Origin: Escherichia phage vB_Eco_mar003J3
Direction: 5' to 3' (one strand)
Sequence record: NC_048203.1
DNA: 64,000 nt
The position numbers were made by a program, and so were the translations under genes. Under the pieces are notes generated by a model. That model did no database searches. It saw only the letters and a list, made by a program, of their open reading frames with translations, and had not been told where the DNA came from. Of this stretch, positions 11,513-63,298 are shown in pieces. The stretch's first letter is position 1. Each line of letters begins with the position of its first letter.

Positions 11513-14500
11513 TTAAGAATTACCAAGTGATTTCAGGGTGGTTCCATTCTCATTAAGAGCCTGTTCTACGGCATCCCTGAAAGCAGCACTGTTGCTCGAA
11601 GCAAAGTCTCGGAAGCTAGCCGCATCCATCGTACTGATGTTCAGCACAATAGGTCTACCCGATGTACCCTTTGAAGATCCTTTGAGTTCATCAGTAGGAG
11701 TAGCCTTCATCGGAACCATAGGAGTGATTACTTCGGTACCATGTTCACCCATCTGGTAACTAACTCCAGGATACATATTACCACCTTCTGCACGGGGTAC
11801 GAAAGAGTTAGCATTACCAATCCCTTGATCTCCTCGAATATAAGAAAGCTCACCTGCGTTAGCCGACATAGAAACGTCTACGTTCTTCTGGCGCTCTCCA
11901 AGAGTTAAGTAACCAGCTGTCTCAGCACCAGAGTCCCCAATAGAAGACATACCAGATGCAGAGGATGCTTGAGCAAGAGCCATAGCACCTGCTAAACCAG
12001 CCGCAACCATCAGAGGAATAGAGAATGGATACGGAACAGCTGTTGCTGCCTGCATCACCGCTACTGCCGTCTGGATAATGATTTGCTTCTTAGCCGCATC
12101 TTGCTGGATCTTGAGCTTTTCAGCCTCTAACTTCTTGATCTTAGCTTTAGATTGCTCAGATTTACCATCACGTTTCTGTTCTGCTGCAATAGCTGCATCA
12201 ATAGCACTTACCTGTTGACCAACACTATACTGAATCATTGAAGATACAGTTTGCATACCAGCCGCTACTAGAGAAGTGGTATCCAGAGATCCTTGTGAAA
12301 ACTGGATCATAGCATTAGTTAGGTTACCCATGCTTTGTGCTACAGCAGTTGCTTCGGAGTTCAGTTCAGACAGCTTAGAAATAGCCTGGTCATAGGATGC
12401 CATTCTATTCTGCATATCCATATTTGCTTTATCATCTCCTTCCAGTCCAGTTGTTGGAGTGTAAACACCACCAACAGAAGAAGTGACTTGCTGCTGCATC
12501 TGAGCATCACGTTGCATCTTAAGCTGTGCTAGAGCTGCCGAAGTTTCTTGGATTTTACGCTTATACTCTTCCTGAGCTTGTGCATTTCCTTTTGTAATTT
12601 CCAGTAAACTTTGGTACAGAGCTTGCTGTTCGGTTAGTCTCTGAGATTCCCCCGTAACGTTTCTGCTAGTCTGTGAAATATTAAGAGCTCTTTCACGTCC
12701 AGAAGCCATTTCCCTTTGCTGATCCTGACGGAATTTCCAGATTTCACGTTCAATTTGTGCCTGAGCTCGTCTTGATTGTTCAGCTTCCTTATGCTTATCA
12801 ACCTGTTTGGAGTACCATTCATACTTTTCTTTCTCGATAGTCAGTTCAAGGTTCAACTGAGCTAAACGATACTGAGTATCTGTCATAGTACGGTTATTCA
12901 GGAGAGCTATTTCACGATCAACACCAAGAATCTTATCAGTATAGTCCTTAACCTTCTTCTGAGCTTCCATACCCTGGTTAGTGATCTTGATACGTTCTAA
13001 CTGAATCTTAGCTATCTCACCTTCGATTGCTTTGTTACCCTTGTTAGTTTCTAGGACACGCTTAAGAGCTGCTTCCTGTTCTTCTAACTGTTGGATTTCC
13101 AGACGTCTACCAGCTTCCTGTGCTTTCTCTTTGTCCTTAGTCTGGTTGTATACTTCTGCAATTTTCTGCTGAACTTCTAACTGATTCTTAGTCTCATTAC
13201 CAGTTAATTTTACGTAACCAGCAAGAGCTTGTGAAGCAGTCTTCATCTCACTAAGAGTATTATACCCTAAGTTCAGGCTCTTAACATACTCATCAGCATT
13301 TTTACCAGTACCAGCAGATAAAGACTCAATAGTCTTAATCGTATCTGATAGGGATGCACTAGTTTTAGCCGCAGTGTTAGTGTTCTGAGCGATGTTCTGG
13401 ATATCGTTAGCTAAATCACTAGCAGTTTTCTTAGCCTGGTCATATGCTTTCTGCTGTTCTGTCAATCCTTTCAGAGTTGCAGAGTTAAAGTCATAAACCG
13501 CATCCGGGTCATTTGCATCTTTCTGTAGGTTAATTTGCTTCTGGAATTCTGTATTAGATTTGGCTGCTGCAGCACCAGCAGCTTGGTATGCCGATTTCCA
13601 TGCATTAAGATTGCCAGTTGAATCCTCTACTTCCTTATCAAGACGCTCTACCTGGAGAGCTAATGCAGCAGTATCTGCAATGAATTTCTGGTTTTCTTCA
13701 GAAGATCCTATGCGAACTCCTCCTACTTCAAAACCTCCTGCAGCTAATCCTACCGGTGCACCTTGAGCAACTAAACGAATAGCCCCTGCTGTAGATGCAT
13801 CTGCTTGCTGCATACGCTTATCTAGATCAGCTTTTAACTTATTACGCTTTTCTAGAGATTCTTTGTACATATCAAGAGCTTTATTATATCCTTCCTCAGA
13901 AGCGGAAAGACTTAAAGCTACAGCACCAACGTTAGTTGGGTCAATCTGACGGTTAGTTTCTTCCTGTGCTCTAGCAGCAGAGGCCGAGATAGATGCTTGA
14001 GAAGTATAGAACACTGCGTTGATAGAATCAATTACTGGCCCTAAATACTTAGCAGCAGCCTGTTGAACCTTTCTCAGGGCAGCATCAGCATTAGCAGCAA
14101 ACTGTTCCCAAGAGGTTGCACGAAGTACATCATCAAGATAGCCGAAACGTTTAGTAGATTCAGCGATTACTGCGTTAGCATATGCTTGTTGCTTCTGGAA
14201 AGTAGAGAGACTATTAACGTTATATGTAATACCTGTGTTAGCAGCATTTAACTGTTTAACGTAGTCAGCGTAAGCATCGTTAAGACGAATAGTAACACCA
14301 AGTTCGTCCAGAAGTTCGATTTCTTGTTTAGATACACCCTTGATTACACGGTTAAGTGCATCAGTCATATCAACACCAAGAACAGCAGCAGCACGACGAG
14401 CTACTAGACCAAATTTATTAAGTTGTTCAGCATCAAATCCATATGCAGAGGCAGAGGATGCCTGTCTCATTGCTTCTTCAAAGGAGATTGCATAACCAGC

Positions 14501-15220
14501 AGCCTCTTGTAGAGATCTAGCTAGAGTTTGTACAGGAGTACCTGTTTGAGTACCAACAATAGTACCAAACTTCTCAAGACGGTTTAACTGGTCACCCATC
14601 TTAAGTTGTTCGAATGCAGATTGTAGAACGAACACGTTAGACGCAATAGCAGCATACATAAGAGGTAGAGAACCACCAACTTTAGCCATTGCTGCGAAGT
14701 CACGAGTAGCACCTCGTGCAGAACCAGAGGTATTACCTAGAGCACGACTAGCACGACCTGCGGATGTGGTAGTATCATTGAAGCCTCTAGTAGTACCCGA
14801 CAAAGCACGGTTTGTATCGTATAATCTATCTTGAACTTTTTCAGTTGCAGCAGCTACATCGTTACCCATTGCCTTAACAGATTTACCAACATGTGTAAAT
14901 CCAGACTCTAGCTTATCAGATACCTCAATCATAGCAATAGCAAGGTCATCTAACTTAGCACCAATACTATCCATAGATTTGGTGATGCCCATCATACCTC
15001 TGCTAGCCTGCATTTTTGTTAGACTTTTGGCTGCCCTATCTGCTGCCCTCTCAATGGAATAAAGAGTTTTGGGCATTTTTCCTAGCTGCTCATTAGTCAG
15101 TTCGGAAGCAGCAGCAGCGTTTTCTAACGCATCAGATACGTTTTCAATAGACTTTGCAGTACGGGTTGCCCCTTTCTGCTTTACATCTATAAGTAATTCT
15201 CGTATTAGCTTATCAGTCAT
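11513..15220 (-). CDS. tail tape measure protein (T5 pb2-like)
   Basis: 1235 aa, long coiled-coil, Gly/Ala-rich membrane-like segment, C-terminal region; canonical position. Confidence 0.85.
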   Translation of the reverse strand: MTDKLIRELLIDVKQKGATRTAKSIENVSDALENAAAASELTNEQLGKMPKTLYSIERAADRAAKSLTKMQASRGMMGITKSMDSIGAKLDDLAIAMIEVSDKLESGFTHVGKSVKAMGNDVAAATEKVQDRLYDTNRALSGTTRGFNDTTTSAGRASRALGNTSGSARGATRDFAAMAKVGGSLPLMYAAIASNVFVLQSAFEQLKMGDQLNRLEKFGTIVGTQTGTPVQTLARSLQEAAGYAISFEEAMRQASSASAYGFDAEQLNKFGLVARRAAAVLGVDMTDALNRVIKGVSKQEIELLDELGVTIRLNDAYADYVKQLNAANTGITYNVNSLSTFQKQQAYANAVIAESTKRFGYLDDVLRATSWEQFAANADAALRKVQQAAAKYLGPVIDSINAVFYTSQASISASAARAQEETNRQIDPTNVGAVALSLSASEEGYNKALDMYKESLEKRNKLKADLDKRMQQADASTAGAIRLVAQGAPVGLAAGGFEVGGVRIGSSEENQKFIADTAALALQVERLDKEVEDSTGNLNAWKSAYQAAGAAAAKSNTEFQKQINLQKDANDPDAVYDFNSATLKGLTEQQKAYDQAKKTASDLANDIQNIAQNTNTAAKTSASLSDTIKTIESLSAGTGKNADEYVKSLNLGYNTLSEMKTASQALAGYVKLTGNETKNQLEVQQKIAEVYNQTKDKEKAQEAGRRLEIQQLEEQEAALKRVLETNKGNKAIEGEIAKIQLERIKITNQGMEAQKKVKDYTDKILGVDREIALLNNRTMTDTQYRLAQLNLELTIEKEKYEWYSKQVDKHKEAEQSRRAQAQIEREIWKFRQDQQREMASGRERALNISQTSRNVTGESQRLTEQQALYQSLLEITKGNAQAQEEYKRKIQETSAALAQLKMQRDAQMQQQVTSSVGGVYTPTTGLEGDDKANMDMQNRMASYDQAISKLSELNSEATAVAQSMGNLTNAMIQFSQGSLDTTSLVAAGMQTVSSMIQYSVGQQVSAIDAAIAAEQKRDGKSEQSKAKIKKLEAEKLKIQQDAAKKQIIIQTAVAVMQAATAVPYPFSIPLMVAAGLAGAMALAQASSASGMSSIGDSGAETAGYLTLGERQKNVDVSMSANAGELSYIRGDQGIGNANSFVPRAEGGNMYPGVSYQMGEHGTEVITPMVPMKATPTDELKGSSKGTSGRPIVLNISTMDAASFRDFASSNSAAFRDAVEQALNENGTTLKSLGNS

Positions 15221-15230
15221 TTATTTTTCC

Positions 15231-15265
15231 CAATAAAAAAGGCTCTGGGCAAATCACCCAGAGCC
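15231..15265 (-). terminator. rho-independent terminator (9-bp GC stem + U-tract) immediately upstream of tape measure start
   Basis: ggctctggg-caaatca-cccagagcc; rc of 15231..15240 gives TTTTTTATTG on the coding strand; shares a 25-bp element with 20238..20262. Confidence 0.6.
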
Positions 15266-15303: not shown

Positions 15304-15669
15304 CTAAGCTCGAGATCTAGCATGTGGTTTAATGTTCGGAGTACGACCATTAGGTTTACTATGCTTCTCGGCTCTCTTACGAGCTGCATCTACAGCTTTC
15401 GAATCAAATATATTGATAATGTGTAGAACAAACTCTTTCTCTATAGGATCAGTAATCCCATAGATATCAAATAAAACACCTAATGCACTTTTGTCTTTCC
15501 CTATAAATATAGGAAAGTCACCGGGTATGAAACAATCAATAAGACTATTATAAATATTCATACTAGTAGATACAATAGGTGGAAAATCTTCGAGCTCAAC
15601 AGGCATTGCCTTAGGATCAGGTTCAATACCTAGAGACTCACAAAGCATTAAATATTGTTGTTTTGTCAT
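15304..15669 (-). CDS. tail assembly chaperone, downstream frame (candidate frameshift extension)
   Basis: 121 aa; its frame is open upstream to 15756 and overlaps the 3' end of 15731..16135 in the -1 frame. Confidence 0.45.
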   Translation of the reverse strand: MTKQQYLMLCESLGIEPDPKAMPVELEDFPPIVSTSMNIYNSLIDCFIPGDFPIFIGKDKSALGVLFDIYGITDPIEKEFVLHIINIFDSKAVDAARKRAEKHSKPNGRTPNIKPHARSRA

Positions 15670-15730
15670 TTTAGATGCTGAGGATTTAATGCATTTATCT
15701 GCAAAATCGGCAACAGCATCTAGTAACTGC

Positions 15731-16135
15731 TTACGCTTTTGAGCTACGAAAAGTGTCTAAGTGGAACACTGTCTGGTTGATCCAAGAATCAAACGCAGCA
15801 GAGTTCTGCATAAGCATGATAGCATTATCGCGGCTAAATGGAACTTCAGTAGTAGGATCAGCTTCAGTTTCGATAAGCATCAGCTTCTCAACATCTCCAA
15901 TCGTCAAGCCAGTCCAGCCAGCAATTGCAGTATCAACGAAAGCTTCAATAAACTTATCATCGTCCTGAACCTGAATCATAGTACCGTTAACCCACTCGTC
16001 ACGCTTAGCGGAAGAGATAACACGTTTAGATGCAGCACGAGACATGTAGTTCAGTTGTAGCTTGAAGTTAGGCATACCTGGATAAGCCAGCTCAATAGTA
16101 CGAGTTTCAAGGGTAATATCTTTTAAATTGATCAT
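15731..16135 (-). CDS. tail assembly chaperone, upstream frame
   Basis: 134 aa directly upstream of tape measure gene; overlapping-frame arrangement typical of G/GT chaperones. Confidence 0.5.
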   Translation of the reverse strand: MINLKDITLETRTIELAYPGMPNFKLQLNYMSRAASKRVISSAKRDEWVNGTMIQVQDDDKFIEAFVDTAIAGWTGLTIGDVEKLMLIETEADPTTEVPFSRDNAIMLMQNSAAFDSWINQTVFHLDTFRSSKA

Positions 16136-17031
16136 TTCTTTATTTCTCCAAAGAAGTCGATTCTTACCGGATCAGAGTCTGCAGTAGGGATTACATCCCA
16201 TTCAACTCTATATATATCCGAGAATTGTAGGCGTTTTGTTATACGTGTTGAAGGAAAATCTATCGAAATATGTTCATTTCGGATGGTTAATGGTATGTCA
16301 GTTTCGGGTTCAATATTATAAAACATATCACCAGCAAATCGCTTGGTGTAGTAAAATGCAATTGTTGCCGAAGCATTCATTTCATTAACATAAGCTCTCT
16401 TATTATTATATATTTTGTTTATGTCAAATACGCTTTTATCTTCCCTCCAAGAACATTGTTGCTGGAATGACATAGAAGCGGATAAAAGAGCTGGTAAAAC
16501 GTTACTATTGGTAGATACTCTAGGAGGACTATATGATATGACTTCACCCTGAACAATAGAACCAGCAGGGGTAGAAGTGGATACCTCAGAGAACTTACCA
16601 GATTCAATTCCTACGTTTAGAATAGGAACGCTTTTATCTAGAGAAAAGTCTACAGTAGATACATAGCAATTCTCAAAGTACACACAGTTATTATCTTTAT
16701 TAACTATGTATATATTAAACATTGTTGGCTCAATATTTGTACTATAAAGTGGTAGTAAGAATGTGTTACCCTCTCGGTCAAAGCCCATCCATTCAAAGAA
16801 GTTAGCTTCAGTAAGGGTATTACTAAAATTTATAGCCAGCGATATTGAAGATGGAGTTTGTGCATTAATAATAGAGTCAGCATAGTTGGTTCTACGATGT
16901 ATAGTCCTACGAAGAGTTTTAAATTCCTCATAGGACGTATTGATATCGTAATTTGACAGGGCATCAAAATGATAAGCCCTGCCATCGTACTCAACTATAA
17001 CTTTTGACTCCCTCATTAGAGAGTAGTACAT
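16132..17031 (-). CDS. tail protein (T5 p140-like)
   Basis: 299 aa between tail tube and chaperone genes. Confidence 0.45.
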   Translation of the reverse strand: MYYSLMRESKVIVEYDGRAYHFDALSNYDINTSYEEFKTLRRTIHRRTNYADSIINAQTPSSISLAINFSNTLTEANFFEWMGFDREGNTFLLPLYSTNIEPTMFNIYIVNKDNNCVYFENCYVSTVDFSLDKSVPILNVGIESGKFSEVSTSTPAGSIVQGEVISYSPPRVSTNSNVLPALLSASMSFQQQCSWREDKSVFDINKIYNNKRAYVNEMNASATIAFYYTKRFAGDMFYNIEPETDIPLTIRNEHISIDFPSTRITKRLQFSDIYRVEWDVIPTADSDPVRIDFFGEIKK

Positions 17032-17035
17032 TTAA

Positions 17036-18445
17036 TTAGCCACCAGAAGCAGTAACTGTAATGCTCTTAGTACCTTCTACACCAGAACCATCTTTAGCTA
17101 CAGCTTTCACAGTAACTGCACCGGTCTTAGAAGCATCAGCGGTTAGTAACCCAGAAGTTGCATCAATAGTGGCAGCAGTACCAGAGGAAATAGACCAAGT
17201 TACTTCCTTATTAGTAGCTTCAGCAGGTAAAACATCTACAGTCATCTGAAGAGTTGCACTATTCTCGACGGAAGTTGCATCACCCGCAGATTTAACAGTA
17301 ATACCTGTTACTTTTACTGGAGCTGCTTTACCACCGTCACCAGTTGCAATCAGATTTGCAATAGTAGCTTTGGTGTACTTATTAGAGAAACCAAGATAAC
17401 CTTCATCACCAGTATCCAGATCAGTAGGAATTGCTTTGAACTCTACAGAAGTACCAAGTACATCGTCAGTCTCAATAGTTGGGATGTTTACGTGGGCTTG
17501 CTTAGCAACCAGAACAGCAGCAGGGCGCTCATCATCATATTCACCACCAAGTACTAGAGCGATTTCGAAACGGTTAACTACTTTCAGGGTCTTAATTAGA
17601 TCTTTGTACAGATCCATAGAACCTAGAGCTTTATCGTTAAGATAAGCAGTTAGAGAACCAGTTAGTTCGAATGCACCAGTAAATGAACCGATTGGGATGT
17701 TAACACGGGACATAACGTTCGGAGTCAGGTAGGTGATGTTGTTATTGATTGTAAAGCTACCACCAGTGATCGGAATGTCATATGCCTTACCAGTATCCAT
17801 ATCCTTAATTTTGAGGATAGTCAGTTTGTTCTTGGTATAAGAACCCTGGATAGTCATGTAAGTTTCATCATCAATACCTACAGTATCAGGATCAAATGGA
17901 GCAGCATCCAGAGGGATCAGCTGGTTACCATTACCTGACCAAGTTACACGACCGATATCTTCGATATCAACGTTTACTTCAGCCTGGTTGATCTGGCAGG
18001 AATCGATGTAGCTCCATGCTTTATCAGTAAGGATGTAAATATGTAGCATTGCCAGTTCGTGGTATGCGTTATCCTTAAAGTTAACCATGAAGTTAGTTTC
18101 GTTAGTGTGTGCACCTGTATCACCATCTAGGTTGATAGGCTTACCACTAGAAAGAGCATGCCACAGCATGTAGTCCGGAACGATCTGCTTACTCGTAGTC
18201 TTGTCTAAGTAAGGCAGGATGTAAGTAGAGAAACTCCACTCAGCTGCGTTCAGGGAGTCGTTGAAACGTTTTGAACCACGAGTTGGACGCGGACCAGCTT
18301 CGTTAACAGTAATATCGGTTGAGTTACTGTCCTGACCCCAAGAAATATCATCTTGAACTAGAATCTCTTGCGTGTTGGTCTTATCGTGACCAGTCTTAAC
18401 CGTAGACACGAAGATTCGAGTATTACGTAATAGTTGTAAAGACAT
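17036..18445 (-). CDS. major tail tube protein with C-terminal Ig-like domain (T5 pb6-like)
   Basis: 469 aa; C-terminal VKVTGITVKSAGD...VTVKAVAKDGSG resembles bacterial Ig-like (Big_2) fold; position before chaperones and tape measure. Confidence 0.75.
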   Translation of the reverse strand: MSLQLLRNTRIFVSTVKTGHDKTNTQEILVQDDISWGQDSNSTDITVNEAGPRPTRGSKRFNDSLNAAEWSFSTYILPYLDKTTSKQIVPDYMLWHALSSGKPINLDGDTGAHTNETNFMVNFKDNAYHELAMLHIYILTDKAWSYIDSCQINQAEVNVDIEDIGRVTWSGNGNQLIPLDAAPFDPDTVGIDDETYMTIQGSYTKNKLTILKIKDMDTGKAYDIPITGGSFTINNNITYLTPNVMSRVNIPIGSFTGAFELTGSLTAYLNDKALGSMDLYKDLIKTLKVVNRFEIALVLGGEYDDERPAAVLVAKQAHVNIPTIETDDVLGTSVEFKAIPTDLDTGDEGYLGFSNKYTKATIANLIATGDGGKAAPVKVTGITVKSAGDATSVENSATLQMTVDVLPAEATNKEVTWSISSGTAATIDATSGLLTADASKTGAVTVKAVAKDGSGVEGTKSITVTASGG

Positions 18446-19728: not shown

Positions 19729-20240
19729 TACACTCTCCTATAGACTTCGATGATTGTACGAATATGTTCTGGAATACCAGACTTAGTATTGTTAAACGTA
19801 ACTGTCTCACCACCAATAGTCTTGGCTTGACGATAATCTTGCTTATGCCAGTGATCTACTAACAGACATGCTGCCAGTTTAAGATCTTCAGGCATTGGAT
19901 TGAAACCACCTTGAGTATACTCTACATCCATATATCCTTCAGGAGGATTAAACTTAAGGAGGATAACACCATCAGGATACAGTTTAAACTGTTCCGTATC
20001 TATTTCATTCTCGTTAATAGTCATCTTTGTAATAGATGTGGCTGAAGGAGAACTCAGGAAATATTTCCTACGGCTAGGTTTTGTGGTGATTAATTGATCT
20101 ACCGCATCTGCATCATCCATACCTAGAAGGCTTGTAATCAGCGTATTGGCAGCTTTAATCATCATCTCAACCTGAGTTTCCATATCAGGACGTTTTAAAT
20201 TCCCATATAGTTTATAATCTTCAACAGTGATGATTTGCAT
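19728..20240 (-). CDS. head completion / adaptor protein (putative)
   Basis: 170 aa, first gene after major capsid terminator. Confidence 0.4.
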   Translation of the reverse strand: MQIITVEDYKLYGNLKRPDMETQVEMMIKAANTLITSLLGMDDADAVDQLITTKPSRRKYFLSSPSATSITKMTINENEIDTEQFKLYPDGVILLKFNPPEGYMDVEYTQGGFNPMPEDLKLAACLLVDHWHKQDYRQAKTIGGETVTFNNTKSGIPEHIRTIIEVYRRV

Positions 20241-20250
20241 TTATTTTTCC

Positions 20251-20278
20251 CAATAAAAAAGGAGAGCCGAAGCTCTCC
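20251..20278 (-). terminator. rho-independent terminator after major capsid gene
   Basis: ggagagc-cgaa-gctctcc followed on coding strand by TTTTTTATTG; same 25-bp flank as 15218..15242. Confidence 0.6.
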
Positions 20279-56870: not shown

Positions 56871-57242
56871 TAGATCTCCCTGATGTTAGAATTTGGCTCA
56901 GCTTTTTGTTAACCCAGAAGCAAGATAAAAACTGGAAGGCAGGCTTGCTTATTATCTAATCACTAGCTACGGTTGGGGTGCTAGCATTCCGGTGAGATTG
57001 ATGGTCTCGATTAGATAAATAAGCACTGGAACTTTGATTTTAACGTTGCGATCTTCCAGGTCTGTTGCAACTACGTGATTGCTCACGCTAAGACAATGGC
57101 TATCTAAAGTCCTAGCTTCTACATTTATACTCCTGGATAGCATGGAGTTACAGTCTACTTCCTGCTGTCACGCCCGGCCATTTATAGAATGTGGACTCTC
57201 TTCTCAGAAGGATCTGGTACAATGACCTGATCCTCTGTTTAG

Positions 57243-57315
57243 TAGTTAGTAGTGGATTTGAACCACTGTAGTCGCTCCGTATGAAGGAGGTGCATAACCG
57301 CTCTGCCAACTAACT
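57243..57315 (-). tRNA. tRNA, anticodon CAU (Met or Ile-lysidine)
   Basis: hand-folded cloverleaf; T-arm AGTGG-TTCAAAT-CCACT; acceptor AGTTAGT/ACTAACT. Confidence 0.6.
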
Positions 57316-57321
57316 ATAATT

Positions 57322-57397
57322 TGGTACTCCGACTTGGGATCGAACCAAGATTTGACGATTATCGGTCGCCTGTTCTAACCTGTTGAACTATCAGAGC
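57322..57397 (-). tRNA. tRNA-Ile, anticodon GAU (CCA encoded)
   Basis: acceptor GCTCTGA/TCGGAGT; anticodon loop CCGATAA; T-loop TTCGATC. Confidence 0.55.
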
Positions 57398-57398
57398 A

Positions 57399-57692
57399 TT
57401 ACATCATTTCATCTAAGTAAGAAGTATACTGGTATTTAGCTTCACCAGTCTTATCTACTTCTACCTCAGTTCGTGGTACTTTACGAACTAGACCATGAAT
57501 CATCTTGTACTGAATAGACTTAGATGGTTCGTGATCTTTTGGAAATACTTGTTTAACCGTTACTACTTTGAAGCCTTCACGAGGTGTTAATACAACAACT
57601 TGATCACCTTCTTTAATTTTCCAGGACTCAGGAAATTCATAAGTGTAGCGTTGACCACCAGTTTGGAACACGACAGAAAGATAACGTTTCAT
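57399..57692 (-). CDS. hypothetical protein
   Basis: 97 aa between tRNA genes. Confidence 0.45.
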   Translation of the reverse strand: MKRYLSVVFQTGGQRYTYEFPESWKIKEGDQVVVLTPREGFKVVTVKQVFPKDHEPSKSIQYKMIHGLVRKVPRTEVEVDKTGEAKYQYTSYLDEMM

Positions 57693-57767
57693 TTGGTTTC
57701 CCTCTCATTAATTTATATAAATATTATAACAAGAAATAAGAGAGAAGGCAAATGAATTTTTTAAATT

Positions 57768-57842
57768 TGGTGCTCCTACCAGGAATCGAACCCGGTTCAG
57801 ATGCTTACAAGGCAACTGCATCGCCAGCAATGCTTTAGGAGC
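57768..57842 (-). tRNA. tRNA-Thr, anticodon UGU (CCA encoded)
   Basis: acceptor GCTCCTA/TAGGAGC; loop CTTGTAA. Confidence 0.6.
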
Positions 57843-58009
57843 AATAAACCCATTATTTCAACGGGATTTCTTTTTCAAATATAGGGGACTTATCAGACAT
57901 TACTGTCATAGCCAACTGCTGTAGAAATTCGAATGAGAGTTTTAAACGTTCTTCTCCTAACTCAACCTCAACTCACTTCATTCGTTTATCTACTTTTAGC
58001 TTTAGATTA

Positions 58010-58231
58010 TCAGACATCTTCGGATTCTCGTTGCTCGGCTACTGCTAGCCAGTCTGGTAAAAGAAACTTAGTACGAAACTCTTCATAAGGTTCTTCTGGA
58101 TAAAAGCTAAAATTTGCTTTCTCATCATTCAAGATAACAGAGCCGTCAGTTTGTTCGTATGCTAGGTATGTTTCTCCAATAACAATAACTCGTTTATTGT
58201 TACTTTTATCACGAAACTCAAAAACGTGCAT
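58010..58231 (-). CDS. hypothetical protein
   Basis: 73 aa. Confidence 0.4.
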   Translation of the reverse strand: MHVFEFRDKSNNKRVIVIGETYLAYEQTDGSVILNDEKANFSFYPEEPYEEFRTKFLLPDWLAVAEQRESEDV

Positions 58232-58248
58232 AAATGTTTCCTTAAAGT

Positions 58249-58324
58249 TGGAGCGGCTAGAGGGAATCGAACCCTACTCAGCGGGGCTTGGAAGGCCTGC
58301 GGCACAACCCGTGTGCTTAACCGC
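58249..58324 (-). tRNA. tRNA, anticodon unresolved (possibly UCC or CCA); weak anticodon stem
   Basis: good acceptor and T-arm (TTCGATT), CCA encoded; anticodon arm has mismatches. Confidence 0.45.
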
Positions 58325-58332
58325 TTATTGGC

Positions 58333-58410
58333 TGGCAGGGGATATTGGATTTGAACCAATGATCTCGACTTCAAAGGCCGAAGCTTTAGACCAAGCTAAG
58401 CTAATCCCCA
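58333..58410 (-). tRNA. tRNA-Gln, anticodon UUG
   Basis: anticodon arm TCGGC-CTTTGAA-GTCGA; T-arm ATTGG-TTCAAAT-CCAAT. Confidence 0.55.
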
Positions 58411-58416
58411 ATTGTT

Positions 58417-58492
58417 TGGCTGGGATGCCACGGATCGAACGTAGAACCTTCGGAGTCAGAGGCCGACGATCTACCAATTGATCTACATCCCA
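58417..58492 (-). tRNA. tRNA-Gln, anticodon CUG
   Basis: standard numbering fits; D-stem GATC/GATC, G18G19, loop CTCTGAC, T-loop TTCGATC. Confidence 0.6.
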
Positions 58493-58499
58493 ATAATTT

Positions 58500-58700
58500 T
58501 TATTCTACAGGAACCGTGGCAATTGGATCTGGTTCTTCTAGACGTTTACCATTATGATCAACACGAATAATACCACAACCTTCACAGATTACAACAGCAC
58601 CATAGCCTTCTTTAACTTCGGCTTCTATAATCAGACCAGAAAGATCACCAGTATCTTTGCCCCACATATCGATAGAGCATTCTTTGCAGAAATCAGCCAT
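58500..58700 (-). CDS. small Cys-cluster protein
   Basis: 66 aa; FCKEC...CEGCG. Confidence 0.4.
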   Translation of the reverse strand: MADFCKECSIDMWGKDTGDLSGLIIEAEVKEGYGAVVICEGCGIIRVDHNGKRLEEPDPIATVPVE

Positions 58701-58724
58701 ATTTTAGTTCCTATATAAGTTAAT

Positions 58725-58799
58725 TGGTGCATCCTCAGGGAATCGAACCCCGATCGTAAAGTTCGTAGCTTTACATTCTTTCCATTGAAATAAGGACGC
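58725..58799 (-). tRNA. tRNA-Arg, anticodon ACG
   Basis: anticodon arm GTAAAG-CTACGAA-CTTTAC; acceptor GCGTCCT/AGGATGC; CCA encoded. Confidence 0.7.
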
Positions 58800-58805
58800 A
58801 ATATT

Positions 58806-58882
58806 TGGGGTGGCTAGTGGAATTCGAATCCACATAGGCCTGATTCACAATCAGGATCATTAACCAATTATGATATAGCCAC
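58806..58882 (-). tRNA. tRNA-His, anticodon GUG
   Basis: acceptor GTGGCTA/TAGCCAC; anticodon arm CCTGA-TTGTGAA-TCAGG; T-arm GTGGA-TTCGAAT-TCCAC. Confidence 0.7.
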
Positions 58883-59216
58883 AATTGAAAACTCGCAGGG
58901 TTAGCGAAACCATCCTCAAATAGCATTTTCTAGAATACTAATCAAGTTATCCCCTATTGCACGAAGCTCAAGACGAGTACGAATTTTCAATTGTGGCGGC
59001 TCTCCGAAACTCTTCCCACTTACAACTAGTTGATTACTCCTAGATTGTCGCCCAGGAAATTCTCTAGAAAGGAGCACCGTTACTCTTTGAGCCATTGAGG
59101 TGGGATAGTCTCTTATCTCTACTAACTACTTGATCCTTACAATCAGTCGGTTAGCACGAGCAGCGACTCTTCATATATAATTTATAGTGCTCAGAAGGTC
59201 ATTAGAAGCACTTATC

Positions 59217-59300
59217 AAGAAGCAGAAGGACTCGAACCTTCACGAGATAGACCATTTATCTCAGCCTCGTTTTCGGGTATCTTATGAGGAGTGGATGTTC
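59217..59300 (-). ncRNA. tRNA-like element (T-arm GAAGG-TTCGAGT-CCTTC plus 6-bp hairpin), cloverleaf not resolved
   Basis: no complementary 5' acceptor strand found by eye. Confidence 0.3.
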
Positions 59301-59379
59301 CCCTTACGCCCTTTAGGAAGCCCCGTCTACCGATTCCGGCATACTTCAAGATTCTGCTAGTCCGAGTCATGCTATAGCA

Positions 59380-59721
59380 TCAAATGCTCGGTGTTAGTGG
59401 TTTCCAAAGTTTAGCAAACTTTAAAACATTTGGTATATCGTTAGAACTTACTGGCATAACTACTAAACAGCTGGGTTCTGCGTTACAAATAGTACGCTCA
59501 AATCCTTTACTACACTCTAGCGTAGACAGAATCTTCTTAAATTCTTTCTTGTTAACCTTAATAACTACCTTAAAGAAGCAGTTGTCAAACCAATCCTTAT
59601 ATCTAGGATCATCCTGAAATTTAACATGAGCATTTAAAACAGAGTGTGCCACTAGAGTCGGCACCATATAATCAGGGGCTTCATCTAATACTGCAATATA
59701 CATCTTACTATAAGTACTCAT
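59380..59721 (-). CDS. hypothetical protein
   Basis: 113 aa. Confidence 0.45.
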   Translation of the reverse strand: MSTYSKMYIAVLDEAPDYMVPTLVAHSVLNAHVKFQDDPRYKDWFDNCFFKVVIKVNKKEFKKILSTLECSKGFERTICNAEPSCLVVMPVSSNDIPNVLKFAKLWKPLTPSI

Positions 59722-59737
59722 ACTGTTCCTTATAATT

Positions 59738-59827
59738 TGGAGGAAGGTAATGGAGTCGAACCATCACCATATCGCTACAGCGGGCAGGTTTTCAAGACCT
59801 GTTACATACCACTATGTCCTACCTTCC
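59738..59827 (-). tRNA. tRNA-Ser, anticodon UGA (type II, long variable arm)
   Basis: acceptor GGAAGGT/ACCTTCC; anticodon arm CAGGT-CTTGAAA-ACCTG; 90 nt. Confidence 0.7.
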
Positions 59828-59834
59828 AGTTGTT

Positions 59835-59924
59835 TGGCGGAAGAAGAGAGATTCGAACTCTCAAGCCGTTTTACCAGTCAGCCACTTTCCAAGCGGTTTT
59901 CGTCACCTATCGATTTGCTCTTCC
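59835..59924 (-). tRNA. tRNA-Ser, anticodon GGA (type II)
   Basis: acceptor GGAAGAG/TTCTTCC; loop TTGGAAA; T-arm GAGAG-TTCGAAT-CTCTC; 90 nt. Confidence 0.65.
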
Positions 59925-60098
59925 GTAGATCTCAGGATTAAATCATAAACTTCATTAGCGGATACTGGAAGTATGAGATTATACATCTTTTGGTCATACC
60001 TCTGACCATACTCTATAAACACATACTCTTTAGTTAATGTATTAACAGCTAACCAGATATCAGTTATAGGAGTTTTCATCATGAGTTAATCCAATGTT

Positions 60099-60179
60099 TG
60101 GTAGGGATGGAGGGACTCGAACCCACACCCGAAGACTAGAACCTAAATCTAGCGCGTCTGCCAATTTCGCCACATCCCC
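60099..60179 (-). tRNA. tRNA-Leu-like, anticodon UAG, 9-nt variable region
   Basis: anticodon arm CTAGA-TTTAGGT-TCTAG; acceptor GGGGATG/CATCCCT. Confidence 0.55.
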
Positions 60180-60186
60180 ATTTTAT

Positions 60187-60405
60187 TTAGTTAGAAATAA
60201 ATAGTAACCCTGCAACAATGGAACCTATGCCACTGAATACCATTATCAGCATAGCTTCTAAGCTGATAAAGCGGACGTTATATGGAGCGCCCCAAGAATA
60301 ATCAGTAAAGAAAGTTTTCTTTTCTTTAGCTAAATCTTTAATAGTTCTAAAATAGATAGCTAGTGCTAAAGCTGCAAGAACTACAGAGGCTGCTAAGAAT
60401 ATCAT
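60187..60405 (-). CDS. small membrane protein (2 TM)
   Basis: 72 aa. Confidence 0.45.
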   Translation of the reverse strand: MIFLAASVVLAALALAIYFRTIKDLAKEKKTFFTDYSWGAPYNVRFISLEAMLIMVFSGIGSIVAGLLFISN

Positions 60406-60424
60406 ATTATTTCCTTAATTTGTT

Positions 60425-60500
60425 TGGTGGAGTCACTCAGAATTGAACTGAGTTCCACTGCTTGCAAGGCAGTAAGTTTAACCAAATAACCTATGACCCC
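60425..60500 (-). tRNA. tRNA-Ala, anticodon UGC (G3-U70 present)
   Basis: acceptor GGGGTCA/TGACTCC; anticodon arm ACTGC-CTTGCAA-GCAGT. Confidence 0.7.
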
Positions 60501-60505
60501 GAATT

Positions 60506-60584
60506 TGGTGGAGAATAAGAGATTCGAACTCTTCTGATATCCTCGGTGCAAGCGAGGTGTCCACTCCAAGCAGACCCATTCCCC
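60506..60584 (-). tRNA. tRNA with anticodon UGC and G3-U70 (second Ala-like tRNA)
   Basis: acceptor GGGGAAT/ATTCTCC; anticodon arm CCTCG-CTTGCAC-CGAGG. Confidence 0.55.
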
Positions 60585-60867
60585 AAAATCTTTAAGTTTA
60601 CTAAGGCTATTAGCTCGGTGTGCGTATTACCCTCAGACATTAGCCAGTAGAGGATAACCGCTCTTCACAAACCCGATACACTATTCAGTTGCCGCTGAAT
60701 CTAGTGGACTAATCTAGAACTTATTGCAAAGTATCCCCCGCCATTAAGGGTCTAATTGCAATTGTGCTTTTTGGCAGCCAGTCCTAGGTCGAGCTAATAC
60801 CTTAGTGAACTTTGATGAGGATTTCTCCTCATCAATTTATATAAATATTATAACAAGAAATTAAGCA

Positions 60868-61227
60868 TCAAGCAAGTACATTTTTAGCGATTTCTTGTAT
60901 TTCCTTAACGTCACTAACGAAAAGGTAATCAGAGCTTCCAGAGTGCATACTCTGCATAACCACACCATCCTCTGGTGCATCTTCTTTCAGTGTGATACCT
61001 AACCAGAACTCGGCAAAACTAGGTGTTACCTCACCTTGACTTGCCTTGAATACATCGGCTTCTGTAATCTCTTGACCAGTGGAGAGTCCCATGTATGGTA
61101 CGTTCAGATCAATATCTTTGTAGAATTCAGCTAGATCTTGTTCGAAGTCCCAACCTTTAGAGATAGCGAACTCACTTGTTACATGACCGAAATAGCCTTG
61201 AACCTTGCTTGATAATTGCATTTGCAA
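60868..61227 (-). CDS. hypothetical acidic protein
   Basis: 119 aa. Confidence 0.45.
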   Translation of the reverse strand: MQMQLSSKVQGYFGHVTSEFAISKGWDFEQDLAEFYKDIDLNVPYMGLSTGQEITEADVFKASQGEVTPSFAEFWLGITLKEDAPEDGVVMQSMHSGSSDYLFVSDVKEIQEIAKNVLA

Positions 61228-61246
61228 TTCCTTATTTTGAGTTAAT

Positions 61247-61320
61247 TGGTACTCGGTGATAGAATCGAACTATCGCAACCGCCGTGTAAAGACGGGGTTC
61301 TCCCATTAAACTAACCGAGC
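61247..61320 (-). tRNA. tRNA-Val, anticodon UAC
   Basis: acceptor GCTCGGT/ACCGAGT; loop TTTACAC; T-arm GATAG-TTCGATT-CTATC. Confidence 0.65.
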
Positions 61321-61329
61321 AAAGTAATT

Positions 61330-61407
61330 TGGTGGGTCGTGAAGGACTCGAACCTTCAACCTATTGCTTAAAAGGCAAGTGCTACTAACCAATTGAGCTA
61401 ACGACCC
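61330..61407 (-). tRNA. tRNA-Lys, anticodon UUU
   Basis: acceptor GGGTCGT/ACGACCC; loop CTTTTAA; T-arm GAAGG-TTCGAGT-CCTTC. Confidence 0.6.
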
Positions 61408-61591
61408 TTAATACGGATAAACTTCCTTAATAGAGTAAGCTTCTAAGTAGCGATGATTAATACCAAATTCAGCCATTACTTCATTTTCATCTTTACCATA
61501 GTGGGCTAAGGTATACTTCGAACGATCTTTGCTAGAACGTCGATCACTTACTACTAATCGAAATAATTTCATTTCGTATCCTCTACTAAAT

Positions 61592-61669
61592 TGGAAGCGG
61601 GTGTAGGAATCGAACCTACCTCTTACTAGCTTATGAGACTAGTGATCTCTACCAGAGATCTAACCCGCA
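61592..61669 (-). tRNA. tRNA, anticodon CAU (Met or Ile-lysidine), second copy
   Basis: anticodon arm CTAGT-CTCATAA-GCTAG; D-stem GATC/GATC. Confidence 0.55.
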
Positions 61670-61675
61670 ATTGTT

Positions 61676-61752
61676 TGGTCTCCAATGAAGGACTCGAACC
61701 TTCAACCCCACCGCCCCAAACGGTGTACTCTAGCCAATTGAGCTAATCGGAG
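61676..61752 (-). tRNA. tRNA-Pro, anticodon UGG
   Basis: acceptor CTCCGAT/ATTGGAG; anticodon arm CACCG-TTTGGGG-CGGTG. Confidence 0.65.
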
Positions 61753-62139
61753 AATATTATTTCTTTAGCCACAACATACTTAATCCTAGCATTGTGAAGC
61801 CTGTACTTAGTCCTACTACTTTCCACATCGTAGAAAGTACATCTATATTAAAGCCAACAATTATTACTGGAATTACCCAAGTACACATAAATACGGATGC
61901 AATTTTTACCTTCATTTCGCTTTCCTTTCATCACTTTATAAAATATATTATACAGAGAATTAAGCAGAATAGCAAATGAATTTTTAATAAATTTACTTAT
62001 TGTGTAGGCCACCTGGAGGCTATGAACCCCACGGCTGACAAAGAAGTTTGCGAGACCTCTCTTAAATGCCAGAATAGACCCGCCGATCTATCGGAACCTA
62101 CATAATAAGTAAACTTTCGCTTACTTATAAGTCAATCTA

Positions 62140-62260
62140 GGCAGGACTTGAACCTGCTATCACTTGTGCGGATTTACGAGAACCATTCTTTCACTCGAAT
62201 CGAACGAGCTTCTACCCTCGGCAAGCTGGTGACCCCTCTCCACCACGCTAGAATGTTTAA
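62140..62260 (-). ncRNA. two tRNA-like T-arm motifs without resolvable cloverleaves (possible degenerate tRNAs)
   Basis: GCAGG-TTCAAGT-CCTGC and GCTCG-TTCGATT-CGAGT present; acceptor pairing not found. Confidence 0.25.
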
Positions 62261-62261
62261 T

Positions 62262-62339
62262 TGGTACACCTGCTGAGATTCAAACTCAGTATCTTCCGAT
62301 TAAGAGTCGGTTGCTTTAAGTCAACTAAGCTACAGATGC
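62262..62339 (-). tRNA. tRNA, anticodon CUU (Lys-like)
   Basis: acceptor GCATCTG/CAGGTGT; loop CTCTTAA; T-arm CTGAG-TTTGAAT-CTCAG. Confidence 0.5.
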
Positions 62340-62345
62340 ATTGTT

Positions 62346-62420
62346 TGGCGGTACTAAGGGTAATCGAAACCCTACCTCTCCCGTGACAGGGGAGTATCCT
62401 AACCATTAGACTATAGTACC
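62346..62420 (-). tRNA. tRNA-Asp, anticodon GUC
   Basis: acceptor GGTACTA/TAGTACC; anticodon arm CTCCC-CTGTCAC-GGGAG. Confidence 0.7.
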
Positions 62421-62992: not shown

Positions 62993-62995
62993 AAT

Positions 62996-63181: not shown

Positions 63182-63208
63182 ATCTATTTCCTCAGTTGTT
63201 AATGAAAT

Positions 63209-63291: not shown

Positions 63292-63298
63292 TAAAATT

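What the first reader, a model, noticed from the sequence alone, without database searches (positions are those of the whole stretch)
15304..16135. Overlapping-frame chaperone pair upstream of the tape measure gene, a candidate -1 programmed frameshift
ORF 15731..16135 ends with ...AGC TCA AAA GCG TAA. The frame of ORF 15304..15669 is open from 15756, that is it overlaps the last eight codons of the upstream ORF in the -1 frame. Slippage around CUUUUC or UCAAAAG would fuse the two into a roughly 280-aa product, the usual G/GT arrangement. The heptamer is not a textbook XXXYYYZ site, so this is tentative.
Basis: partly seen in the sequence, partly recalled or inferred. Interest (0 to 1): 0.45.

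Follow-up and report, generated by a model that had tools for sequence, protein, structure and literature searches.

The report
T5-like tail chaperone +1 frameshift
This is the usual pair of tail-assembly chaperone genes of a T5-like phage.

Summary
The window is a T5-like phage (Epseptimavirus, about 98.5% identical to Salmonella phages ende and Sw2). On the minus strand the gene order is tail tube, p140-like baseplate tube, G (15731-16135), T (15304-15669), then tape measure.

The ORFs and the overlap are real. The T frame, however, is +1 relative to G, and the -1 frame is closed.

- **Conservation.** All 87 relatives in which both parts were found keep T out of frame. Every T5-like lineage has T in the +1 frame, with an invariant in-frame NNN_UUU_CGN inside the overlap. 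In two lineages the overlap shrinks to a few codons around that motif. Distant uncultured relatives are -1 instead and carry canonical heptamers at the homologous spot.
- **No independent start.** The T ATG has no Shine-Dalgarno and is not conserved. The 26 codons upstream of it have no start codon, yet they evolve as coding sequence.
- **Best explanation.** A low-level +1 slip of tRNA-Phe from UUU to UUC (15751-15748) produces a 276-aa GT fusion. This is the same cassette as influenza PA-X.
- **Prior knowledge.** GenBank already holds exactly this fusion (...DTF|VAQ...) for phage Sw2. The T5 RefSeq record does not annotate it.

Nothing is experimentally verified. The case is ordinary in kind and slightly unusual in direction.

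The parts
15731..16135 (-). G: short tail assembly chaperone, 134 aa, made by normal decoding. Stop TAA at 15731-15733.
   Evidence: ORF list. PHROG 313 'Tail assembly chaperone', E=4e-35, profile positions 12-141 of 258. SD-like GGAG upstream, anti-SD dG -6.4. The exact protein sits in a public cluster named tail assembly / tape measure chaperone.
15746..15754 (-). Proposed +1 shift cassette ACU_UUU_CGU in the G frame. E site is ACU 15754-15752, P site is UUU 15751-15749, A site is CGU 15748-15746. tRNA-Phe re-pairs to UUC at 15750-15748, and the next codon read is GUA at 15747-15745.
   Evidence: Read directly from the sequence. In-frame NNN_UUU_CGN is invariant in every +1 lineage. It is the only motif inside the minimal overlaps of Vibrio phage D350 and Pectobacterium phage My1. 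Literature on UUU_Y and UUU_CGN +1 shifting.
15757..15759 (-). TAG that closes the T frame upstream. It is the 5' limit of the window in which the shift must occur; the G stop at 15731-15733 is the 3' limit.
   Evidence: Three-frame translation and frame analysis.
15670..15747 (-). Linker of 26 codons (VAQKRKQLLDAVADFADKCIKSSASK) in the T frame, upstream of the first ATG. It can be reached only by ribosomes arriving from G.
   Evidence: There is no ATG, GTG or TTG in this frame between 15756 and 15669. Among 18 distinct Markadamsvirinae sequences, variable nucleotide columns fall 5/1/16 on T-frame codon positions 1/2/3 over the 28 codons from UUC to the ATG. This includes Ser TCC<->AGC switches. 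pN/pS is 0.23, and the other two frames contain stops.
15304..15669 (-). T domain as usually annotated (121 aa from the ATG at 15669; stop TAG at 15304-15306). Proposed to be expressed only as the C-terminal part of GT.
   Evidence: PHROG 3914 'tail assembly chaperone', E=4e-57, and PHROG 313 positions 170-255. Anti-SD dG is +1.2 kcal/mol, against -4.2 to -9.5 for nine neighbouring genes. The ATG is replaced by Ile, Val or Leu codons in other lineages.
11513..15220 (-). Tape measure protein (pb2-like, 1235 aa), the presumed client of G and GT.
   Evidence: PHROG 3779, E=0. Annotation of relatives.
16132..17031 (-). Baseplate tube protein (T5 p140-like, 299 aa), directly upstream of G; its stop overlaps the G start.
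   Evidence: Pfam PF23779 Baseplate_Tube_p140, E=3e-141. PHROG 3889.
17036..18445 (-). Tail tube protein (pb6-like, 469 aa, C-terminal Big_2 domain), the presumed partner of the T domain.
   Evidence: PHROG 3575, E=1e-263, and Pfam Big_2.
15241..15265 (-). Intrinsic terminator-like hairpin plus T-run between T and the tape measure gene.
   Evidence: Terminator scan: 11-bp stem with 7 GC pairs. A terminator is annotated at the same place in T5, Spivey and PR1.

Best explanation
G (15731-16135) and T (15304-15756 frame) are the tail assembly chaperone pair of a T5-like siphophage.

Most ribosomes translate G and stop at the TAA at 15731-15733, giving the 134-aa G protein. A small fraction shift at ACU_UUU_CGU. 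With peptidyl-tRNA-Phe (anticodon GAA) on UUU (15751-15749) in the P site and CGU in the A site, the tRNA re-pairs one base forward on UUC (15750-15748). Decoding then continues with GUA in the +1 frame, through a 26-codon linker and the T domain. The result is a 276-aa GT fusion with junction ...HLDTF|VAQKRK....

By analogy with lambda gpG/gpGT, G and the G part of GT would coat the tape measure protein, and the T part would recruit the tail tube protein. Neither would end up in the virion.

Shown here: the frame geometry, the conserved motif, the absence of an independent start, and coding constraint on the linker. Inferred: the slip itself, its efficiency (probably a few percent or less, as at other such sites), and the chaperone roles.
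For: 1. Frame: T is +1 of G and the -1 frame is closed.

2. Family-wide conservation. In 78 fetched loci plus 8 more isolates and the window itself, T is never in frame with G.
- All T5-like lineages are +1 and carry in-frame NNN_UUU_CGN in the overlap. They are Tequintavirus including T5, Epseptimavirus, Sugarlandvirus, Serratia phage Kamaji, Novosibvirus, Priunavirus, Enterobacter phage KKP_3711, Pantoea phage AAS21, Hongcheonvirus, Myunavirus, Pogseptimavirus, Thalassavirus, Vibrio phage D350 and the environmental locus L060.
- At 60% G identity there are 7 +1 clusters, all with UUU_CGN. None has a heptamer that leads into an open -1 frame; one in-phase C_CCA_AAA occurs in some Tequintavirus variants, where the -1 frame is closed.
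- There are 4 -1 clusters, all with in-phase G_GGA_AAC, A_AAU_UUU/C or A_AAA_AAC and none with UUU_CGN.

3. Site pinned. In D350 and My1 the permitted window is only AAC AAC UUU CGU / GAC UCC UUU CGU before the stop. Only UUU->UUC allows re-pairing there.

4. Codon choice.
- In this window's genes, Phe before CGN is TTC 18 times and TTT 5 times. TTT_C and TTT_T are depleted (29 observed against 54 expected; 32 against 55). Yet every +1 lineage uses UUU at this site.
- Arg after Phe is specific to the +1 lineages; the -1 lineages have Ser, Gln or Thr there.

5. No independent start. There is no SD at ATG 15669 (dG +1.2, against -4.2 to -9.5 for neighbours) and no start codon upstream in the frame. 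The ATG is not conserved.

6. The linker is under protein-coding constraint in the T frame: variable columns 5/1/16, pN/pS 0.23. In the overlap, GCU<->GCC is silent in T but changes Ser to Pro in G.

7. Literature.
- Influenza PA-X shifts +1 at UCC_UUU_CGU at about 1%. Other predicted PA-X-like viral sites also prefer CGN in the A site (PMC3498833).
- TTT-CGC has been proposed for the +1 tail-chaperone shift of HF1 haloviruses (PMC7230728).

8. The exact fusion with junction F|V is GenBank AXY85088.1 / YP_009812293.1 of phage Sw2. Eight alternative junctions I tried are absent from the collection. Sw2 and Shivani annotate joined CDSs.
Against: - There is no experimental evidence here or in the literature I could reach: no junction peptide, no reporter assay.
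- CGU is a common, well-decoded codon in enterobacteria, and the phage itself encodes tRNA-Arg(ACG). A 'hungry A-site codon' is therefore not obvious.
- No conserved stimulator was found. Downstream folding z-scores range from +0.9 to -3.5 across 11 lineages. I saw no SD-like sequence upstream by eye.
- The E-site codon varies (ACU, UCA, UCU, UCC, ACG, ACC, AAC).
- A genome announcement states that, 'similar to T5', Sugarland's chaperone has no predicted frameshift signal, citing Zivanovic 2014, which I could not read.
- The lineages share ancestry, so the conservation statistics are not fully independent.
Confidence: 0.75

Rival explanations
1. Two independent proteins. T is initiated on its own at ATG 15669 (or reinitiated after G terminates), and no fusion is made. 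The upstream open frame would be incidental.
For: Most public records, including T5 RefSeq (T5.143/T5.142), annotate two separate CDSs. Automated gene callers start T at this ATG in many cluster members. A genome announcement says no frameshift signal is predicted in T5 or Sugarland.
Against: - ATG 15669 has no SD (dG +1.2, against -4.2 to -9.5 for neighbours).
- The Met is replaced by Ile, Val or Leu in other lineages. There the next Met would remove the conserved TKEQYL motif.
- The 26 codons upstream have no start codon yet show a 5/1/16 codon-position pattern and stay open in every lineage.
- Frame direction and motif type co-vary perfectly across 11 clusters. Independent initiation would not require this.
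Confidence: 0.12
2. A +1 shift elsewhere in the overlap. One candidate is tRNA-Lys slipping AAA->AAG at UCA_AAA_G (15742-15736), which is the reader's UCAAAAG. Another is a slip at the last sense codon before the stop, GCG_UAA.
For: AAA_G allows re-pairing of tRNA-Lys in this phage and lies inside the permitted window. A slow stop codon in the A site is the classic +1 stimulator, as in prfB.
Against: AAA_G is absent from the overlap in Kamaji (AUC AAG UCG), Novosibvirus, Pogseptimavirus, Thalassavirus, D350 and My1. GCG->CGU cannot re-pair. The fusions ...RSSK|RKQ... and ...SSKA|KQ... are not in the public collection, whereas ...DTF|VAQ... is.
Confidence: 0.05
3. The same fusion is reached by a -2 ribosomal shift (as in phage Mu) or by RNA polymerase slippage that drops one U in the T-run.
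For: +1 and -2 lead to the same frame. Mu gpGT is reported to use -2 at about 2.2% (PMC3498833). Deleting one U from CUUUUC gives the same ...TF|VAQ... protein.
Against: A -2 shift would re-pair tRNA-Phe on CUU here, and on ACU in the many AAC_UUU lineages, with one or two mismatches. It would also give ...TFFVAQ..., which is not in the collection. The T-run is only 4 nt here and 3 nt in most lineages. By general knowledge of transcriptional slippage (my own, not tested here), that is too short.
Confidence: 0.04
4. One reading: lambda-like -1 tandem slippage into the downstream ORF.
For: This is the commonest arrangement for G/GT pairs (PMC5009743). Distant uncultured relatives of this same family do use -1 with canonical heptamers.
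Against: The downstream ORF is not in the -1 frame. The -1 frame is open for only 7 codons around the G stop. There is no in-phase X_XXY_YYZ in the window's overlap.
Confidence: 0.01

Closest known systems
Phage lambda gpG/gpGT and the conserved tail-chaperone frameshift of long-tailed phages (Levin 1993; Xu, Hendrix & Duda 2004, as summarised in PMC5009743)
   Same: [quoted passage not shown] The second has no start of its own and overlaps the 3' end of the first. The shift site is a few codons before the G stop. A long GT fusion is expected at low level.
   Different: Lambda shifts -1 by tandem slippage on G_GGA_AAG. Here the shift must be +1, at a single UUU_C site, with no heptamer. There is no detectable sequence similarity to Pfam tail-chaperone families.
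Annotated 'Tape Measure Chaperone Frameshift Product' of Salmonella phage Sw2 (AXY85088.1 / YP_009812293.1) and the joined CDS of phage Shivani (YP_009194776.1)
   Same: This is the same locus in phages about 98% (Sw2) and about 90% (Shivani) identical. The Sw2 protein equals my predicted fusion with junction ...HLDTF|VAQKRK....
   Different: These are annotations only; I found no experiment or published rationale. Most other records, including T5 RefSeq, annotate two separate genes.
Influenza A virus PA-X +1 frameshift cassette UCC_UUU_CGU (Firth et al. 2012, PMC3498833)
   Same: UUU in the P site slips to UUC and CGU is in the A site. No RNA structure is required and efficiency is low (about 1%). 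Pectobacterium phages My1 and DU_PP_V have the identical 9-mer.
   Different: The ribosome and host are eukaryotic, where CGU is rare; in enterobacteria CGU is common. The E-site codon here is ACU and is not conserved across the phage family.
Archaeal tailed viruses: HSTV-2 ('very likely +1', PMC5009743) and HF1-group haloviruses (TTT-CGC proposed, PMC7230728)
   Same: A tail-chaperone pair upstream of the tape measure gene requires a +1 shift. [quoted passage not shown]
   Different: The hosts are archaea, the viruses are myoviruses, and the protein sequences are unrelated. These cases are also only predicted.
Bacterial UUU_Y +1 shifting: E. coli argI error site and Yersinia YopN-TyeA fusion (PMC5009743)
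   Same: The same tetranucleotide logic operates in enterobacterial ribosomes, without a stop codon in the A site, and it fuses two adjacent ORFs.
   Different: These are cellular genes. argI shifting is regarded as an error rather than a programmed event.
Phage Mu gpGT (-2 frameshift, about 2.2%; cited in PMC3498833)
   Same: A non-canonical route into the same relative frame (+1 is equivalent to -2) for a GT fusion.
   Different: Re-pairing after a -2 shift is poor at the T5-like site, and the product would carry an extra residue.

Membership tests
G/GT tail assembly chaperone pair with programmed frameshift (Xu, Hendrix & Duda 2004 type) | Two small ORFs located between the major tail / tail tube gene and the tape measure gene | tested here: met
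   The minus-strand order is TTP 17036-18445, p140-like 16132-17031, G 15731-16135, T 15304-15669, TMP 11513-15220. One extra gene, p140, sits between the tube gene and G, as in T5.
G/GT tail assembly chaperone pair with programmed frameshift (Xu, Hendrix & Duda 2004 type) | The second ORF is open across the 3' end of the first in another frame and lacks its own start signal | tested here: met
   The T frame is open from 15756 and overlaps G by 23 nt. ATG 15669 has no SD, and there is no start codon upstream of it in the frame.
G/GT tail assembly chaperone pair with programmed frameshift (Xu, Hendrix & Duda 2004 type) | Canonical -1 slippery heptamer X_XXY_YYZ in the overlap, leading into the -1 frame | tested here: not met
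   T is in the +1 frame, the -1 frame is closed, and there is no in-phase heptamer in the window. Distant uncultured relatives of the same protein family do meet this feature.
G/GT tail assembly chaperone pair with programmed frameshift (Xu, Hendrix & Duda 2004 type) | The arrangement and shift site are conserved among relatives despite sequence divergence | tested here: met
   All 87 relatives in which both parts were found keep T out of frame. There are 11 clusters at 60% identity plus 5 further genera. No natural in-frame G-T fusion appears among the 150 best of 165 T-domain clusters.
G/GT tail assembly chaperone pair with programmed frameshift (Xu, Hendrix & Duda 2004 type) | Sequence or structure homology to known tail assembly chaperones | tested here: inconclusive
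   PHROG 313 and 3914, both named 'tail assembly chaperone', match strongly. There is no Pfam, NCBIfam or PDB sequence match. The single-sequence AlphaFold model of G is unusable, with pLDDT 34.
G/GT tail assembly chaperone pair with programmed frameshift (Xu, Hendrix & Duda 2004 type) | G and GT proteins are both made at a fixed ratio, both are required for tail assembly, and both are absent from virions | not testable with these tools
   This needs proteomics and genetics.
PA-X-like +1 frameshift cassette (NNN_UUU_CGN) | In-frame UUU followed by C, so that tRNA-Phe can re-pair on UUC in the +1 frame | tested here: met
   UUU is at 15751-15749 and C at 15748. This is invariant in all +1 lineages.
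PA-X-like +1 frameshift cassette (NNN_UUU_CGN) | CGN arginine codon in the A site | tested here: met
   The codon is CGU here, and CGU or CGA in every +1 lineage. The homologous residue in -1 lineages is Ser, Gln or Thr.
PA-X-like +1 frameshift cassette (NNN_UUU_CGN) | UCC in the E site | tested here: not met
   The codon is ACU here. Across lineages it is ACU, UCA, UCU, ACG, ACC or AAC. UCC occurs only in Pectobacterium phages My1 and DU_PP_V.
PA-X-like +1 frameshift cassette (NNN_UUU_CGN) | Demonstrated +1 junction peptide and low efficiency without a 3' RNA structure | not testable with these tools
   Only the absence of a conserved 3' structure could be checked: z-scores from +0.9 to -3.5 in 11 lineages.
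prfB-type +1 frameshift | Stop codon in the A site at the shift codon, plus an upstream Shine-Dalgarno-like stimulator | tested here: not met
   The A site holds CGU and the stop lies five codons downstream. There is no GGAGG-like element in the 20 nt upstream (GUGUUCCACUUAGACACU), read.

The most novel reading that the evidence does not exclude
All cultured T5-like phages (Demerecviridae) make their GT tail chaperone by a structure-independent +1 ribosomal frameshift on NNN_UUU_CGN, the same minimal cassette as influenza A PA-X. Within one homologous protein family the recoding direction has flipped between canonical -1 heptamers (G_GGA_AAC, A_AAU_UUU, A_AAA_AAC) and this +1 site, at the same Asn/Thr-Phe position. 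This would explain why T5 has been described as lacking a frameshift signal. It would also add a large, experimentally tractable set of programmed +1 sites read by enterobacterial and Vibrio ribosomes.
Probability: 0.7. Interest if true: 0.5.

Novelty: already known. Interest (0 to 1): 0.33.

Why it matters
**Annotation.** Most T5-like genomes, including the T5 reference record, list two separate 'chaperone' genes. The second is given a start codon that is probably never used. The correct product is a +1 joined CDS of about 276 aa.

**Recoding biology.** Programmed +1 sites used by bacteria are few. A UUU_CGN site conserved across at least a dozen phage genera would be a clean system for asking what makes UUU_C CGN shifty when CGU is not a rare codon. 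The system is especially useful because sister lineages use classical -1 heptamers at the same codon. It is also easy to test in T5 or E. coli.

**T5 tail assembly.** It predicts a GT protein of about 31 kDa that should bind both pb2 and pb6.

The kind of feature is textbook, and the fusion is already in GenBank for a near-identical phage. The finding is therefore a correction and consolidation rather than a discovery.

Tried and rejected
- **-1 frameshift.** Rejected on frame arithmetic: the -1 frame is open for only 7 codons.
- **Slip at UCA_AAA_G or at the stop codon.** Not conserved, and those fusion sequences are absent from the public collection.
- **-2 shift or transcriptional slippage.** Re-pairing is poor and the T-run is only 3-4 nt.
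- **Downstream stimulatory RNA structure.** The window's 109 nt after the site fold with z = -2.6. However, 69-nt windows in 11 lineages give z from +0.9 to -3.5 with no common helix. Folding across the site gives z = -0.1.
- **The search for homologous proteins with the fused query.** It returned no hit at all. This is unexplained, because exact cluster members do exist.
- **Pfam, NCBIfam and PDB sequence searches for G and T.** Nothing was found.
- **AlphaFold of G alone.** pLDDT was 34, so I did not run a fold search.
- **Alignment A1 as a locus-search query.** It was too divergent, so I split it into A2 and A3.
- **Zivanovic et al. 2014 (PMC3911642).** This is the T5 morphogenesis paper cited for 'no predicted frameshift signal'. 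It is not held in the library, so I could not check what it actually says.
- **Literature searches for a published T5 +1 chaperone frameshift.** Nothing was found.
- **P0036.** This 1455-aa repeat protein matches a T segment eight times. It looks like a tandem-repeat artefact and I did not pursue it.
Full report
**What the region is.**
- A 2-kb query around the finding matches 445 phage records. The best, at 98-98.6% identity, are Epseptimavirus members of the Demerecviridae, the T5-like phages (Salmonella phages ende, Sw2 and others).
- All genes here are on the minus strand. The order is a pb6-like tail tube protein (17036-18445, PHROG 3575, Big_2 domain), a p140-like baseplate tube protein (16132-17031, Pfam PF23779, E=3e-141), ORF 15731-16135 (134 aa, called G below), ORF 15304-15669 (121 aa, called T below), an intrinsic terminator (15241-15265), and a pb2-like tape measure protein (11513-15220).
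- G matches PHROG 313 'Tail assembly chaperone' over profile positions 12-141 of 258. T matches PHROG 3914 'tail assembly chaperone' and also positions 170-255 of the same PHROG 313. That family profile therefore spans both parts.
- There is no Pfam, NCBIfam or PDB sequence match for either part.

**Checking the observation.**
- G ends ...ACU UUU CGU AGC UCA AAA GCG UAA.
- The T frame is closed by a TAG at 15757-15759 and is open from 15756.
- The frame relation, however, is wrong. G codons begin at coordinates congruent to 1 mod 3 and T codons at 0 mod 3. On the minus strand that places T one base 3' of G, which is the +1 (or -2) frame.
- The real -1 frame is open for only seven codons around the G stop.
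- A fusion would be 276 aa.

**Comparative evidence that a frameshift is used.** I fetched the homologous locus from 9 further isolates (the Sw2 and ende loci were already in hand), 69 IMG/VR contigs, the T5 reference and 8 more isolates.
- In every locus where both parts are found, T is out of frame with G: 78 loci plus the window, and 8 more. None has a natural in-frame fusion.
- An exhaustive HMMER search with the T frame found 165 clusters. The 150 best are all short stand-alone ORFs, apart from one repeat artefact.
- All T5-like lineages are +1, and all carry an in-frame NNN_UUU_CGN inside the overlap. These lineages are Tequintavirus including T5 itself, Epseptimavirus, Sugarlandvirus, Serratia phage Kamaji, Novosibvirus, Priunavirus, Enterobacter phage KKP_3711, Pantoea phage AAS21, Hongcheonvirus, Myunavirus, Pogseptimavirus, Thalassavirus, Vibrio phage D350 and one environmental contig.
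- The Phe is the one invariant residue near the junction; 15 other columns of the eight-lineage alignment are also invariant.
- In Vibrio phage D350 and Pectobacterium phage My1, the window between the T-frame stop and the G stop shrinks to four codons: AAC AAC UUU CGU and GAC UCC UUU CGU. The only codon there that can re-pair one base forward is UUU->UUC.
- More distant uncultured relatives (30-40% identity) instead have T in the -1 frame. At the homologous place they carry textbook in-phase heptamers: G_GGA_AAC (immediately before the same UUU), A_AAU_UUU, A_AAU_UUC or A_AAA_AAC.
- Clustering G at 60% identity gives 7 +1 clusters, all with UUU_CGN. None has a heptamer that leads into an open -1 frame; one in-phase C_CCA_AAA occurs in some Tequintavirus variants, where the -1 frame is closed. 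It also gives 4 -1 clusters, all with a heptamer and none with UUU_CGN. Motif type and frame direction co-vary without exception.

**Evidence against an independent start for T.**
- The 22 nt before ATG 15669 pair with the anti-Shine-Dalgarno sequence at +1.2 kcal/mol. The nine neighbouring gene starts give -4.2 to -9.5.
- There is no ATG, GTG or TTG in the T frame between 15756 and 15669.
- The Met is Ile in Sugarlandvirus, Val in Kamaji and Leu in Pogseptimavirus. In those phages the annotated starts fall at different, later positions and would delete the conserved TKEQYL motif.
- Even so, the stretch upstream of the ATG is clearly protein-coding in the T frame. Among 18 distinct Markadamsvirinae sequences, over the 28 codons from UUC to the ATG, variable nucleotide columns fall 5/1/16 on codon positions 1/2/3. 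There are repeated synonymous changes, including Ser TCC<->AGC. pN/pS is 0.23, and the other two frames contain stops.
- Inside the overlap, the GCU/GCC polymorphism is silent in T but changes Ser to Pro in G.

**Mechanism.** The proposed event is as follows. Peptidyl-tRNA-Phe sits on UUU (15751-15749) with CGU in the A site. It re-pairs on UUC (15750-15748), and decoding continues with GUA, giving ...HLDTF|VAQKRK....

This fits established knowledge.
[quoted passage not shown] It appears to be the site of the Yersinia YopN-TyeA fusion (PMC5009743).
- The influenza A PA-X site is UCC_UUU_CGU, shifts +1 at about 1%, and other predicted PA-X-like viral sites also prefer CGN in the A site (PMC3498833).
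- A TTT-CGC motif has been proposed for the +1 tail-chaperone shift of HF1 haloviruses (PMC7230728).

The phage's own codon usage agrees that UUU_Y is something to avoid.
- In 59 crude genes of the window, TTT_C and TTT_T are roughly half as frequent as expected.
- Phe before CGN is TTC 18 times against TTT 5 times.
- Yet every +1 lineage keeps UUU here.

I found no conserved stimulator. There is no common downstream structure, no upstream SD-like element, and the E-site codon varies. This is compatible with the low efficiency that a G:GT ratio like lambda's 30:1 needs, but it leaves the role of CGN unexplained. CGU is common in enterobacteria, and the phage even encodes tRNA-Arg(ACG).

**Alternatives.**
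- A -2 shift or loss of one U by RNA polymerase would reach the same frame. But -2 re-pairing is poor, especially in the AAC_UUU lineages, and the T-run is only 3-4 nt.

**What is already known.**
- Sw2 and Shivani carry joined CDSs for a 'frameshift product'.
- By exact look-up, the fusion with junction ...DTF|VAQ... is GenBank AXY85088.1 / YP_009812293.1. Eight other junctions I tried are absent. The +1 join at this codon has therefore already been annotated for a phage about 98% identical to the window.
- On the other hand, the T5 RefSeq record and most other records list two separate genes.
- The Sugarland genome paper states that, 'similar to T5', the chaperone has no predicted frameshift signal, citing Zivanovic 2014. 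I could not read that paper.
- I found no paper describing the +1 site in T5-like phages and no experimental test.

**Verdict.** The feature is real and ordinary in kind: a G/GT tail chaperone pair. The best-supported mechanism is a PA-X-like +1 shift at ACU_UUU_CGU, which I give a confidence of about 0.75.

It is already annotated in close relatives, so I rate it 'already known'. A modest residue of interest remains: the family-wide conservation of UUU_CGN, the switch between -1 and +1 at one homologous codon, and the inconsistency of public annotation.

**Limits.**
- Everything here is comparative.
- The lineages are not statistically independent.
- Efficiency and function are inferred from lambda.
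- The structural check of G failed, with pLDDT 34.

Noticed in passing
window 15218-15240 and 20238-20260 (minus strand); terminator hairpin 15241-15265: The 23-nt string TTTTTTATTGGGAAAAATAAATG is repeated exactly in front of the tape measure gene and in front of the ORF that follows the major capsid gene. It comprises a terminator T-tail, a short spacer and a start codon. None is expected by chance. Both copies follow a GC-rich hairpin, so two late genes share an identical terminator-plus-start module.
   Followed up: partly
window 57242-63374 (minus strand): A cluster of 20 tRNA genes, typical of T5-like phages. It includes tRNA-Arg(ACG) at 58725-58799, which reads the CGU A-site codon of the proposed shift site. 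No tRNA-Phe lies in the window.
   Followed up: no
whole window (59 crude ORFs of at least 100 aa): There is a strong codon-context bias. UUU followed by a pyrimidine is about half as frequent as expected (TTT_C 29 against 54; TTT_T 32 against 55), while UUC_Y is enriched. This is consistent with avoidance of +1-prone UUU_Y sites in ordinary genes.
   Followed up: partly
L086 and L087 (Pectobacterium phages DU_PP_V and My1), G 3' ends: These two phages carry exactly UCC_UUU_CGU, the 9-mer of the influenza A PA-X frameshift site. In My1 the whole G/T overlap is just GAC UCC UUU CGU UAA.
   Followed up: yes
L038-L056 and L062-L079 (IMG/VR environmental contigs): Uncultured relatives (30-40% identity) of the same chaperone family use the -1 frame, with canonical heptamers at the homologous codon. 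No cultured phage in the collection is closer than about 37% to the one of these clades that I searched with.
   Followed up: partly
L080 (phage T5, NC_005859 95777-96529): In T5 an endonuclease gene (T5.141) is inserted between the T ORF / terminator and the tape measure gene. It is absent at that place in the window.
   Followed up: no
window 15670-15720 (minus strand): In Markadamsvirinae a perfect 9-bp inverted repeat, UAGAUGCUG...CAGCAUCUA, ends 4 nt before ATG 15669. It would occlude the place where an SD would sit. It is not conserved in other genera.
   Followed up: partly
protein P0036: This 1455-aa protein is made of tandem repeats that match T residues 89-130 eight times (E=3e-17). 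It looks like a repeat or assembly artefact rather than a relative.
   Followed up: no
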